Shown here piece by piece: positions 52,101-55,100 of a stretch of DNA of 64,000 nucleotides. The DNA comes from Escherichia coli. GTDB taxonomy: Bacteria; Pseudomonadota; Gammaproteobacteria; Enterobacterales; Enterobacteriaceae. Where the stretch lies: assembly GCF_003334335.1 (NCBI RefSeq), contig NZ_QOWQ01000007.1. The stretch is one strand, 5' to 3'. Numbering within the stretch: the first letter of the stretch is position 1; each line of letters starts with the position of its first letter. A program made the position numbers.

Positions 52101-55100
52101 CCCATTTTCTTCAGCTCTTCGCCGAAGTACCAGGTGAGATGACCCGGCATATAGCCTATCTCTGGCGTTTGTTTGTCTGCGGCGTCTGGGAATGCGCAAA
52201 TGGAATAACCATTCAGTGGGTTATCGCCGTGGCGAAGCGCCAGAAAAGCCGCCGGGCCGTGGCAAAGGGAGATAACAAAACGGTCATTTTTGATTGCCCA
52301 CTGTAAAGCAGCAGCCACGTCCTGGCTTTCTGGTAGACCAATAAGTGCGCCATGACCACCAGGAACAAAGATTGCTGCATATTCGCTATCAGCGTTGAGG
52401 CTGGCGACAACATCCGCGAGTTTCTTCGGATTGCGGAACAACGATTTATGCTGCTCAAAGAATGGCATTACTTTTTCATCTTTGTGCGGCATAGCCCAGT
52501 ATTCAAACTTGGTCATCAGACCGGAAATGGTCGCCACTTCGAATTCGAAACCTGCAGCATGGAGATGATACAACGGCAGCAACGTTTCAATCGGATGGTT
52601 ACCGGTCGAGAACAGTTTTCCGTTATCGGTCGGCAAATAACGTTCGTCCGCGGCGATCACCAGAATTTTATGTTTACCGCGATACGGTTTTGGATAGTCC
52701 ACGCCATCAAGATCAGAGACAGGACTGGTATATTGGCTAAGCGAATATTCTGAAGGGAAGAATGCATTATCTTCAGCAATATCGACCTGCGGATTTTTAC
52801 TTGTTTGAACAGTCATAGTGTATTCCTTATTGTTGCTTAGTTAGGGTAGTCACTATATTTGCGACTGAGCTGGTCGCTATTTTTAACCAGGCTGGAAAAT
52901 TGAGTCAATATATCGAAAGCGGTAGTCGGCGGGTGTAAGTATGTAATGATGATGCTGCACTGGTGTTGAATATTATTCACGCCAAATTTTCCTTATTGAG
53001 CAACGTCGTCGCAAGTGGCCTCAATGATTTTAGACCATTATCAGAGGTACGGGGCGGCGGGGAGAGATTTAGTGATGTGGAATATTGTGGTGCTGATGAA
53101 TATTTATATCCCGGATTGGTAGAGAAAAAGCTTATTTCATGCACTATTTTTGCAAATATTTCTATATGGGAGGCGGTTTTGTTGCAGATTAATTCATAAA
53201 GAAATGCATTTGGGTCTTGGCTGGAAGAGTCGCTGGTAGATGTTATTGTGCCAGCAGGGGCAGGGTAAGGTGCTGTATCGATATGCTTTGGCAATTGCGC
53301 GTGCCGCAGAGGGAGATAAAATGCCAATAAAAAAGCCTGAGTTCGATGAGGGACGAACTCAGGCTAGTGTTAAGTTTTACAGTAACACGCCGCGGCGCGT
53401 TGGCTGATTAGAACTGGTAGACGATACCAAATGCGAGTTGGTCGTCGGTGTTCAGTCCATGAGCGAGAACATAATCACTCTTATCAAGCAGGTTGATCTG
53501 ATAAGCGGTATATACGTTCATGTTCTTATTGAAGTAATACCAGGTACCGATTTCAATGTAGTTCAGACGATCAGAATCTTTGTAACCTGCTACGTCCAGT
53601 GCTTTAGAATAGGAGTAACCGATGGATGGACGCAGACCGAAGTCGAACTGATATTGCAGAACAGCTTCGAAGTTTTGTGTTTTGTTCACAACATCACCGT
53701 CGTCGGAATTCATGTTGTGAGATTCACCGTACATCACAGCAGCATAGACGTTGTTGGCATCATATTTTGTTGACAGTGCCCAAACTTCTGCTTTTTCACC
53801 TTTACTATCACTAGACTGGAAATCAGTACGATCAGAGTTTGCGTAAGCACCAGCAAATGAGAAACCGTCAATAGTGTAAGTTACAGATAAACCATGGCCA
53901 TCGCCATTTGCTTTGTAGTTGCCTGTACCTTCATTTTTACCCTGATATTGCAGAGCAAAATTTAGACCTTCAACCATGCCAAAGAAATCTGTGTTACGAT
54001 AGGTTGCAACACCGTTGGTACGGTTGGTCATGAACAGGTCAGTACCAGCCCATGAATCACCGCCCCACTCAACAAACATATCAGTAAATGCTTCTGCATC
54101 ATACGCGACACCGACATTACGACCATAGTCGAATGAACCAAAATCTTTGTAACTCAAACCAGCATAAGCCAAACGAGTTTGGTCAGGGTTGTCTCTGTTT
54201 GATGCTTCCAGGTCTAGTTCAAACTGACCGTAACCAGTCAATTCAGGGTTGATCTGAGTTTCACCTTTCACGCCTACACGGGCATAAGAGGTATCTTGAG
54301 AATTATCGCCTTTTTCACCATTTTCACGGTCGGTCAGAATGCGCTCACCAACCATCTTGCCGTACAAATCCAGTTTATTGCCATTTTTATTATAAATTTC
54401 AGCCGCATTTGCTGCGCCAGCAACTAATAACGCCGGGACCAGCATTGCCAGAACTTTTCTTTTCATTATGTATTCCCTTGTGATTATAATCTTCATGAAT
54501 ATATCAATAAGTGCCGTTATCCAAAAAAAAGCACATTTGGATACTATTCTATGAAGTTCATTTTATTTTAAGGATTACATGTAACAAATGTATTTAAAAG
54601 ATTTCAAAATGTTTCTAATCTATTTAATATAATTCGGAATTATGAATTCTAAATATAAATATTCATGAAAATTATAAATGTATATCAATATGTTATGAGT
54701 TGAGCGGAAACATAGGGGGTATCAATGATTGTTGCGCCAAACGACTGGTGTGATCAGGCGCACATTAATGAAGGCATAAAAAAAAGCCGGCATCATGCCG
54801 GCCCAAAAAATATAAACAAGACGATAAAAGGCTAATAACGGAAGCATCATGACACAGAATAATAAAAAGGTATAATTGTAATCAGTGCTAATATATTGAT
54901 TAAATGAATTAATAAAGCCGATATCAAAGATAAATAAAATCGCTCAAAACGATTTTTCCTGTATTCACTGCCGTTGCGCAAAATTTATCTATTTGTTCAA
55001 AAAATGATTGAGTCTTGACTGGCTCATCCAATGTGGAAAAATGTGACTTTTATCACATAATAGTACTAAGTCTGAATTTTCCGGGTTATCTCAAAATGGA

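What the first reader, a model, noticed from the sequence alone, without database searches (positions are those of the whole stretch)
52817..53407. 590-bp non-coding interval between hchA and yedS
The interval contains the yedS terminator hairpin but otherwise no ORF, and it includes AT-rich stretches. It could harbour an unannotated small RNA or the hchA promoter region.
Basis: seen in the sequence. Interest (0 to 1): 0.2.

Follow-up and report, generated by a model that had tools for sequence, protein, structure and literature searches.

The report
hchA promoter plus decayed stress-gene relic
This 591-bp gap in E. coli is ordinary: it holds the known promoter and leader of hchA, the terminator of the neighbouring porin gene, and between them the unannotated, decaying remains of a small universal-stress-protein gene that is still intact in sister Escherichia species. 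I found no sign of a small RNA.

Summary
The interval is real: 591 bp between hchA and the yedS-type porin gene, both on the minus strand. It is equally unannotated in MG1655 (2035244-2035834) and single-copy in 4872 of 5426 complete E. coli genomes.

It has three parts.
- **hchA control region (52817-53039).** This hchA-proximal 223 bp is conserved. It contains the 55-56 nt leader and a published start site at K-12 2035779/80, which is window 52872/52871. The -35 is TTGACT and the -10 is AAAAAT. An exact copy of the proV high-affinity H-NS site, TCGATATATT, overlaps the -35.
- **Gene relic (53075-53317, plus strand).** Two fragments correspond to codons 1-33 and 101-134 of a 134-aa UspG/F-like gene. 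That gene is intact, divergent from hchA and under purifying selection in E. whittamii and three other non-coli Escherichia lineages. In E. coli the relic carries stops, frameshifts and two large deletions, and it is the most variable part of the interval.
- **Terminator (53334-53365).** A 12-bp hairpin that ends the porin gene.

No Rfam match, no structured-RNA signal and no conserved ORF was found. The published tables I could search list no extra start site, 3' end or translated small ORF here.

The promoter reading is supported and the small-RNA reading is not. Novelty is minor: an unannotated pseudogene relic.

The parts
52817..52872 (-). hchA 5' untranslated leader (55-56 nt), with Shine-Dalgarno TAAGGA at 52829-52824
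   Evidence: TSS b1967 = 2035779 in SMRT-Cappable-seq, PMC6131387 supplement. The TSS-anchored primer starts AGCTCAGTCGC in PMC11282234. Nucleotide diversity is 0.000 among 12 E. coli. Sequence read.
52879..52908 (-). hchA core promoter: -35 TTGACT (52908-52903), 18-nt spacer, -10 AAAAAT (52884-52879)
   Evidence: Promoter scan. Position fits the mapped TSS. The TATATTGAC and CTGGTTAAA-ATAGC blocks are invariant across 7 Escherichia sequences.
52907..52916 (-). TCGATATATT: exact copy of the proV high-affinity H-NS site, overlapping the -35 hexamer by two bases
   Evidence: Only occurrence in the 64-kb window. Listed as proV sites 1 and 2 by Lang et al. 2007, PMC2094087. H-NS repression of hchA is cited in PMC11796372. 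Binding at this site is inferred, not shown.
52917..53039 (-). Conserved upstream region of hchA, about -45 to -168 from the TSS; function not resolved (regulator sites, a second promoter, or the start of a 47-codon ORF)
   Evidence: 76-87% identical to Escherichia sp. E1V33. Diversity 0.006-0.046 within E. coli, at or below hchA third codon positions (0.044).
53040..53074 (.). Deletion junction: about 35 nt stand where sister lineages have the ~470-bp usp-hchA divergent spacer
   Evidence: Chained alignment to L007. Diversity 0.105.
53075..53170 (+). Relic of the Usp-like gene, N-terminal fragment (codons 1-33, including the former ATG at 53075); in-frame TAG at 53120-53122 and frameshifts
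   Evidence: 72% identity to usp nt 1-99 of L007. Smith-Waterman score 36 against shuffles of 10.3+/-1.4, maximum 19. tblastn fragments are colinear. Disabling mutations differ between strains.
53171..53215 (.). Internal deletion junction: 45 nt stand where the intact gene has 201 nt (codons 34-100)
   Evidence: This is the most variable segment of the interval, diversity 0.146.
53216..53317 (+). Relic of the Usp-like gene, C-terminal fragment (codons 101-134)
   Evidence: 69% identity to usp nt 301-401 of L007. Score 32-33 against shuffles of 9.5+/-1.4. blastn 77.8% over 180 nt to L007.
53324..53365 (-). Intrinsic terminator of the porin (yedS/ompC-like) gene: hairpin 53365-53334 plus T-tract. 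In sister lineages it lies between the convergent porin and usp genes
   Evidence: Terminator scan. Perfect 12-nt inverted repeat. Folding z -5.6 on the minus strand and -3.2 on the plus strand. Conserved in all 7 Escherichia sequences.
53366..53407 (-). Porin 3' untranslated stretch between the stop codon and the terminator hairpin
   Evidence: 88% identical to L007. Sequence read.

Best explanation
The interval is a composite of three ordinary things. (a) The hchA-proximal ~223 bp (52817-53039) is the transcription and translation control region of hchA. It holds a 55-56 nt leader and a sigma-70/sigma-S-type promoter (TTGACT, 18 nt, AAAAAT). An H-NS nucleation-type site (TCGATATATT) overlaps the -35, and a further ~120 bp of constrained upstream DNA follows. 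I infer that H-NS nucleates at that site and occludes the -35, which would account for the published H-NS silencing of hchA. (b) The next ~280 bp (53040-53317) is the dead remnant of a 134-codon UspG/F-like gene that once lay divergent from hchA and convergent with the porin gene. The E. coli lineage lost codons 34-100 and nearly all of the usp-hchA spacer, which probably held the usp promoter. What is left is decaying neutrally. (c) The last ~85 bp is the porin 3'UTR and its intrinsic terminator, which in the ancestral arrangement served both convergent genes. Nothing in the interval needs a small RNA or a small protein to be explained.
For: Shown:
- Start site. The published hchA TSS lies at window 52872/52871, directly downstream of the promoter-like site.
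- Constraint. The 5'UTR and promoter blocks are invariant across Escherichia species, and diversity within E. coli is 0.00-0.036 against 0.044 at hchA third codon positions.
- Intact gene elsewhere. A 134-aa ORF lies between the porin gene and hchA in L005, L006 (E. whittamii), L007 and L008. It matches Pfam Usp at 2.6e-9, is nearest to UspG in NCBIfam, and has dN/dS of 0.18-0.38.
- Relic in E. coli. Two colinear, same-strand fragments match it at 72% and 69% identity and 16-18 s.d. above shuffles.
- Decay. Stops and frameshifts differ between strains, and diversity in the relic zone is 0.07-0.15.
- Fixation. None of 5426 complete E. coli genomes has the long form.
- Terminator..

Inferred: H-NS nucleation at TCGATATATT. 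It rests on the exact identity to the proV sites and on the literature statement that H-NS represses hchA.
Against: - I could not read the primary promoter study (Mujacic and Baneyx 2006), so sigma-factor use and H-NS footprints are not verified here.
- One exact 10-mer match in 64 kb is not significant on its own: 16 of 100 shuffles have at least one.
- The function of the conserved block 52917-53039 is unassigned.
- The 12 E. coli sequences were picked to span the identity range of this very interval. That inflates absolute diversity, though not the contrast between sub-regions.
- Transcript absence rests on partial supplementary tables, not on raw read coverage.
Confidence: 0.85

Rival explanations
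1. The interval encodes an unannotated small regulatory RNA. One possibility is a transcript of the relic on the + strand ending at the bidirectional hairpin.
For: The hairpin also folds on the + strand (z -3.2) and once terminated the usp gene. The interval is long for an E. coli intergenic region. + strand GC skew is strongly positive.
Against: No credible Rfam match at E<=10: only MicX (17.9 bits, gathering 75) and ar7 (15.5 bits, gathering 60) on the terminator hairpin. No + strand promoter-like site. The spacer that probably held the usp promoter is deleted. No window other than the terminator folds better than shuffles. The candidate region is the least conserved part of the interval and carries indels. 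No 3' ends are listed there in the Term-seq tables held. On the + strand the hairpin is followed by AGTGTTAAGTTTTAC, a poor U-tract.
Confidence: 0.06
2. A small protein is made from the interval. Candidates are the 47-codon ORF 52980->52837 (-), which overlaps the hchA promoter and acts as a leader peptide from an upstream promoter, or the 64-aa relic ORF that PGAP calls 'hypothetical protein' in some strains.
For: The 47-codon ORF is intact in 12 of 12 E. coli and is open in E. albertii, L005 and L006. An AAGGA lies 9 nt before a GTG/ATG that is kept in all 7 Escherichia sequences. The 64-aa ORF is annotated in many genomes.
Against: The only mapped hchA TSS lies inside the 47-codon ORF, so the known mRNA cannot encode it. 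A 2-bp indel breaks its frame in L007 and L008. All four polymorphisms seen within E. coli change the amino acid. Its conserved part coincides with the promoter blocks. The held supplement of Stringer et al. 2021 lists no translated small ORF there. The 64-aa ORF is interrupted at codon 2 or 16 in most strains, including this window and K-12, and is simply the relic read through.
Confidence: 0.05
3. The relic DNA is not neutral. It has been co-opted as an extended H-NS-bound silencer or curved upstream region that contributes to the thermal and stationary-phase control of hchA.
For: hchA is H-NS-silenced according to the literature. The relic contains the most AT-rich 100 bp of the interval, G+C 0.31 at 53100-53199. 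H-NS filaments usually spread from nucleation sites over flanking AT-rich DNA (Lang et al. 2007). The short form is fixed in all E. coli.
Against: Diversity in the relic zone (0.07-0.15) exceeds that of hchA third codon positions (0.044), and indels are common. This gives no sign of sequence constraint, although spreading needs composition rather than sequence. No binding data could be examined.
Confidence: 0.12

Closest known systems
hchA (Hsp31) promoter region of E. coli K-12, described by Mujacic and Baneyx 2006 as sigma-S/sigma-70 dependent and H-NS silenced
   Same: Same locus. The window is 96% identical to MG1655 across the interval and identical in the leader. The published TSS coordinates map onto the predicted promoter.
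   Different: Nothing differs in kind. The overlap of an exact proV-type H-NS site with the -35 is my reading of the sequence. I could not check whether the original paper already noted it.
Universal stress proteins UspG and UspF of E. coli (Pfam PF00582)
   Same: The intact sister-lineage protein has the Usp fold signature over residues 1-124. It aligns best to the UspG model and then to UspF.
   Different: It scores far below the equivalog cut-offs: 62.9 against 189 bits for UspG and 36 against 166 for UspF. It is 134 aa long with a short C-terminus. The large protein database holds only 8 relatives; the two that carry a source name are labelled Escherichia. In E. coli proper only about 200 nt of it survive, in two pieces, and untranslatable.
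Unannotated gene remnants (pseudogene relics) in bacterial intergenic regions; the neighbouring yedS is itself an annotated pseudogene in K-12
   Same: Fragments are recognisable only by comparison with an intact orthologue. There are multiple deletions, frameshifts and stops, and the disabling mutations are polymorphic between strains.
   Different: This one is not annotated in MG1655 RefSeq. In some genomes PGAP calls its read-through a 64-aa hypothetical protein.
Bidirectional intrinsic terminators between convergent genes
   Same: A perfect 12-bp G+C-rich hairpin is flanked by an A-tract on one side and a T-rich stretch on the other. In sister lineages it lies between the porin and usp stop codons.
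   Different: In E. coli only the porin side still has a gene to terminate, and the + strand U-tract is poor.

Membership tests
Sigma-70-type promoter with a mapped start site (hchA promoter) | -35 and -10 hexamers with 16-18 nt spacing, placed 5-9 nt upstream of an experimentally mapped 5' triphosphate end | tested here: met
   TTGACT, 18 nt, AAAAAT at 52908-52879. TSS at window 52872/52871 from SMRT-Cappable-seq and from a TSS-anchored primer.
Sigma-70-type promoter with a mapped start site (hchA promoter) | Sequence constraint on the hexamers and the leader | tested here: met
   Invariant blocks across 7 Escherichia sequences. Diversity 0.00-0.036 against 0.044 at hchA third positions.
H-NS high-affinity (nucleation) site | 10-bp match to tCGATAAATT with a central T-A step | tested here: met
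   TCGATATATT at 52916-52907 is identical to proV sites 1 and 2, fit 9 of 10.
H-NS high-affinity (nucleation) site | Demonstrated H-NS binding (footprint or ChIP) at the site | not testable with these tools
   Only the literature statement that H-NS represses hchA is available. No binding data could be read.
Universal stress protein family (Pfam PF00582), for the ancestral gene | Significant match of the intact orthologue to the Usp profile | tested here: met
   i-Evalue 2.6e-9 over residues 1-124 of the L007 protein.
UspG or UspF equivalog (NCBIfam NF012000 / NF011581) | Score at or above the curated cut-off (189 / 166 bits) | tested here: not met
   62.9 and 36 bits. It is a separate, lineage-restricted Usp paralogue, not UspG or UspF.
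Pseudogene relic of that usp gene, for the E. coli sequence | Significant, colinear, same-strand nucleotide homology to an intact orthologue at the syntenic position | tested here: met
   Two blocks, 72% and 69% identical, z about 17-18 against shuffles. The reverse strand scores at background level. Both lie between the same porin gene and hchA.
Pseudogene relic of that usp gene, for the E. coli sequence | Disabling lesions and lack of constraint | tested here: met
   Net loss of about 156 nt within the gene, frameshifts, TAG at codon 16, and a lost start codon in K-12 and others. Diversity is above the synonymous-like level.
Small regulatory RNA | Own promoter and terminator, conserved sequence or structure, or a match to a described family | tested here: not met
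   No Rfam hit above gathering; only sub-threshold MicX and ar7 matches on the terminator. No + strand promoter-like site. No structure signal apart from the porin terminator. Poor conservation.
Small regulatory RNA | A detected transcript | tested here: inconclusive
   The held supplementary tables list no 3' end and no TSS other than that of hchA. The tables are partial, and orphan transcripts may not be listed. Raw coverage was not available.
Intrinsic (Rho-independent) terminator | G+C-rich hairpin followed by a U-tract downstream of a stop codon | tested here: met
   12-bp stem with 7 G-C pairs and an 8-nt loop, then TTTTTATTGG, starting 43 nt after the porin stop. z -5.6.

The most novel reading that the evidence does not exclude
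The conserved block 120-210 bp upstream of hchA (52937-53026) plus the always-open 47-codon ORF (52980->52837), with its conserved AAGGA and GTG/ATG, could be a second, condition-specific hchA promoter driving a translated leader peptide. That leader would couple hchA expression to translation stress. Alternatively, the Usp relic could still be transcribed in some phylogroups, giving a 64-aa product.
Probability: 0.05. Interest if true: 0.4.

Novelty: new member of a known kind. Interest (0 to 1): 0.14.

Why it matters
The practical value is in annotation and interpretation.
- It explains why a well-studied gene has an unusually long, apparently empty upstream region. About half of that region is the fossil of a neighbouring stress gene, not regulatory DNA or a hidden RNA gene.
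- It tells annotators that the 64-aa 'hypothetical protein' called there in many E. coli genomes is a pseudogene read-through.
- It gives a concrete, testable site (TCGATATATT overlapping the -35) for the reported H-NS silencing of hchA.
- It shows that E. coli sensu stricto differs from sister Escherichia lineages by loss of a lineage-restricted Usp paralogue. That loss is a small marker for the genus' gene-content history.

None of this changes any general concept.

Tried and rejected
- **Rfam.** Scan of 51500-55500 at E<=10. Apart from sub-threshold MicX and ar7 matches on the terminator hairpin, nothing lies in the interval. RseX lies beyond the porin gene.
- **Repeated or mobile element.** Rejected: the median is one copy per genome.
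- **ORFs.** The 116-aa (-), 78-aa (+) and 55-aa (+) ORFs are broken or frameshifted in many of the 12 strains.
- **47-codon ORF as a gene.** Judged unlikely, for the reasons given under the rival explanations.
- **10-nt repeat CAATAAGGAA.** It occurs before both the 47-codon ORF and hchA, and I considered it as a sign of a 5'-end duplication. It is not significant: 12% of shuffles score as high.
- **MAFFT placement.** The multiple alignment put the E. coli middle segment in the wrong part of the long form. A gap-tolerant pairwise chain and local alignments corrected this.
- **hchA loci outside Escherichia** (Citrobacter, Enterobacter, Pluralibacter, Rosenbergiella, Stenotrophomonas). No similarity to the interval and no usp-like neighbour.
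- **Literature.** Mujacic and Baneyx 2006 and Thomason et al. 2015 are not held. The Cappable-seq supplement had no entries for the region in old coordinates. The 'hchAp' search gave only noise. The papers on the yedS-yedR intergenic region concern the other side of the porin gene.

Full report
**1. The observation.**
hchA occupies 51965-52816 on the minus strand. The porin gene (yedS/ompC-like, intact here) ends at 53408 on the same strand. The gap 52817-53407 is therefore 591 bp. The window is E. coli: the interval is 100% identical to strain FORC_042 and 96% identical to MG1655, where the same 591 bp (2035244-2035834) carry no annotation. It is single-copy in 4872 of 5426 complete genomes, and 4740 of them hold at least 80% of it. 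G+C is about 0.43, so the interval is only mildly AT-rich.

**2. The hchA side.**
- A promoter-like site (TTGACT, 18 nt, AAAAAT) lies at 52908-52879 on the minus strand.
- Two independent published sources place the hchA start site just downstream of it. SMRT-Cappable-seq lists operon b1967 with a TSS at 2035779, which is window 52872 (PMC6131387 supplement). Ousalem et al. [quoted passage not shown] The leader is therefore 55-56 nt.
- Among 12 E. coli sequences chosen to span the identity range, the leader is invariant. The whole hchA-proximal 223 bp has a diversity of 0.00-0.036, against 0.044 for hchA third codon positions.
- The same 223 bp is the only long part of the interval, apart from the terminator end, that aligns by blastn to E. 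albertii, E. whittamii and three other divergent Escherichia genomes. Invariant blocks cover the -35, the -10, the start site and the Shine-Dalgarno sequence.
- Immediately upstream of the -35, and overlapping it by two bases, is TCGATATATT (52916-52907), the only copy in the window. This is letter for letter the high-affinity H-NS site found twice in proV (Lang et al. 2007, PMC2094087).
- The literature cited states that H-NS represses hchA. I therefore infer that H-NS nucleates there and occludes the -35. That step is inference, and one 10-mer match is not significant on its own.

**3. The middle of the interval.**
- In four Escherichia genomes outside E. coli proper (L005, L006 E. whittamii, L007 Escherichia sp. 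E1V33, L008) the porin-hchA spacer is about 1185 bp rather than 591 bp. It contains a 134-codon ORF divergent from hchA and convergent with the porin gene.
- The product matches the Pfam Usp family (2.6e-9). It is nearest to UspG and then UspF, but far below their equivalog cut-offs.
- It has only 8 relatives in a database of 5.8 billion proteins; the two that carry a source name are labelled Escherichia.
- Pairwise dN/dS of 0.18-0.38 shows it is a working gene there.
- On the window's + strand, two colinear pieces match it. Positions 53075-53170 align to nt 1-99, including the start codon, at 72% identity. Positions 53216-53317 align to nt 301-401 at 69% identity.
- Each piece scores 16-18 standard deviations above shuffled sequence, while the reverse strand scores at background. 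tblastn finds the same pieces in the same order.
- Codons 34-100 (201 nt) are replaced by 45 nt. The ~470-bp usp-hchA spacer is replaced by about 35 nt.
- The relic has an in-frame TAG at codon 16 and several frameshifts. The start codon is CTG in K-12 and several other strains, some strains have a stop at codon 2, and a few read through for 64 codons. That read-through is what PGAP annotates as a 'hypothetical protein' in many genomes, and it still aligns to the Usp N-terminus.
- Diversity in this zone is 0.07-0.15, the highest in the interval and above the hchA synonymous-like level.
- No complete E. coli genome carries the long form (0 of 5426 with at least 80% coverage).
- E. albertii lacks the gene through a different deletion, one that keeps part of the spacer E. 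coli lost.
- hchA third-position distances show that E. coli, E. albertii, L005 and the L006-L008 group are roughly equidistant. Presence of the gene, or of both its ends, in three of four deep lineages points to ancestral presence and independent losses.

**4. Tests of the small-RNA and small-protein ideas.**
- Rfam finds nothing credible in the interval at E<=10; two far-sub-threshold matches (MicX, ar7) cover only the terminator hairpin. The nearby real sRNA is RseX, at 54779-54868.
- A 100-nt sliding fold on both strands gives |z|<2 everywhere except at the terminator.
- No + strand promoter-like site was found.
- The Term-seq tables of Adams et al. 2021, as held, list no 3' end in the interval. 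The operon table of Yan et al. 2018 lists only the hchA start. The held supplement of Stringer et al. 2021 lists no translated small ORF there. These are partial tables, so absence of a transcript is likely but not proven.
- The 116-, 78- and 55-codon ORFs are disrupted in many strains.
- The 47-codon ORF 52980->52837 is the one loose end. It is open in all 12 E. coli, in E. albertii, in L005 and in L006, and a conserved AAGGA lies 9 nt before a conserved GTG/ATG. Against it, a 2-bp indel shifts its frame in L007 and L008, every polymorphism seen in it is non-synonymous, the mapped TSS lies inside it, and its conserved part is the promoter itself. I rate it as probably non-coding.

**5. Verdict.**
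The interval consists of the hchA promoter and leader, a fossil Usp-family gene, and the porin terminator. The small-RNA half is unsupported. The only new item is an unannotated pseudogene relic and the loss of a lineage-restricted Usp paralogue in E. coli proper. This is of modest, mainly annotational, interest.

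Noticed in passing
window 54779-54868 (-): The sRNA RseX (Rfam RF01401, 97.7 bits against a gathering score of 50) sits in the very AT-rich region upstream of the porin gene, as in MG1655. 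This is the real small RNA of the neighbourhood, and it lies outside the finding.
   Followed up: partly
window 53408-54496 (-): The yedS-type porin gene is intact in this strain (the 362-aa ORF includes an upstream extension; the likely start is MKRKVLAM), whereas yedS is a pseudogene in K-12. Among the 12 E. coli compared, its 3' end is extremely variable (diversity 0.36, some of which may be misalignment). RefSeq calls it 'porin' or 'ompC', with lengths of 1059-1215 bp. Diversity rises steadily from hchA towards it, which suggests that linked variation spills into the relic zone.
   Followed up: partly
window 52837-52980 (-): A 47-codon ORF overlapping the hchA promoter and leader is open in all 12 E. 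coli and in three other Escherichia lineages. It has a conserved AAGGA and a GTG/ATG start. It is frame-shifted in two lineages and shows only non-synonymous polymorphism.
   Followed up: partly
L003 2259-2453 (+), corresponding to about window 53075-53269: RefSeq/PGAP annotates a 64-aa 'hypothetical protein' (WP_001402296.1) here in many E. coli genomes. It is the Usp relic read through both fragments, not a gene.
   Followed up: yes
L051 (NZ_CP135688.1, strain TUM2820) 1029-3038: In this strain an IS5-like ISKpn26 insertion has removed the whole interval except the last 38 bp, together with the N-terminus of hchA.
   Followed up: no
L004 (E. albertii) 2485-3000: E. albertii has a 516-bp porin-hchA spacer that lacks the usp gene completely but keeps about 180 bp of the usp-hchA spacer that E. 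coli lost. This indicates an independent deletion.
   Followed up: partly
window 52850-53350: + strand GC skew is strongly positive (0.2-0.48) across the whole interval, including the hchA-proximal part that is not relic. The relic's coding strand may explain part of it, but the rest is unexplained.
   Followed up: no
window about 54747-54767: The sequence ggTGTGAtcaggcGCACAtta upstream of the porin gene, next to RseX, is listed as an in vitro CRP site assigned to yedS in a 2026 Footprint-seq preprint (PMC12871828).
   Followed up: no
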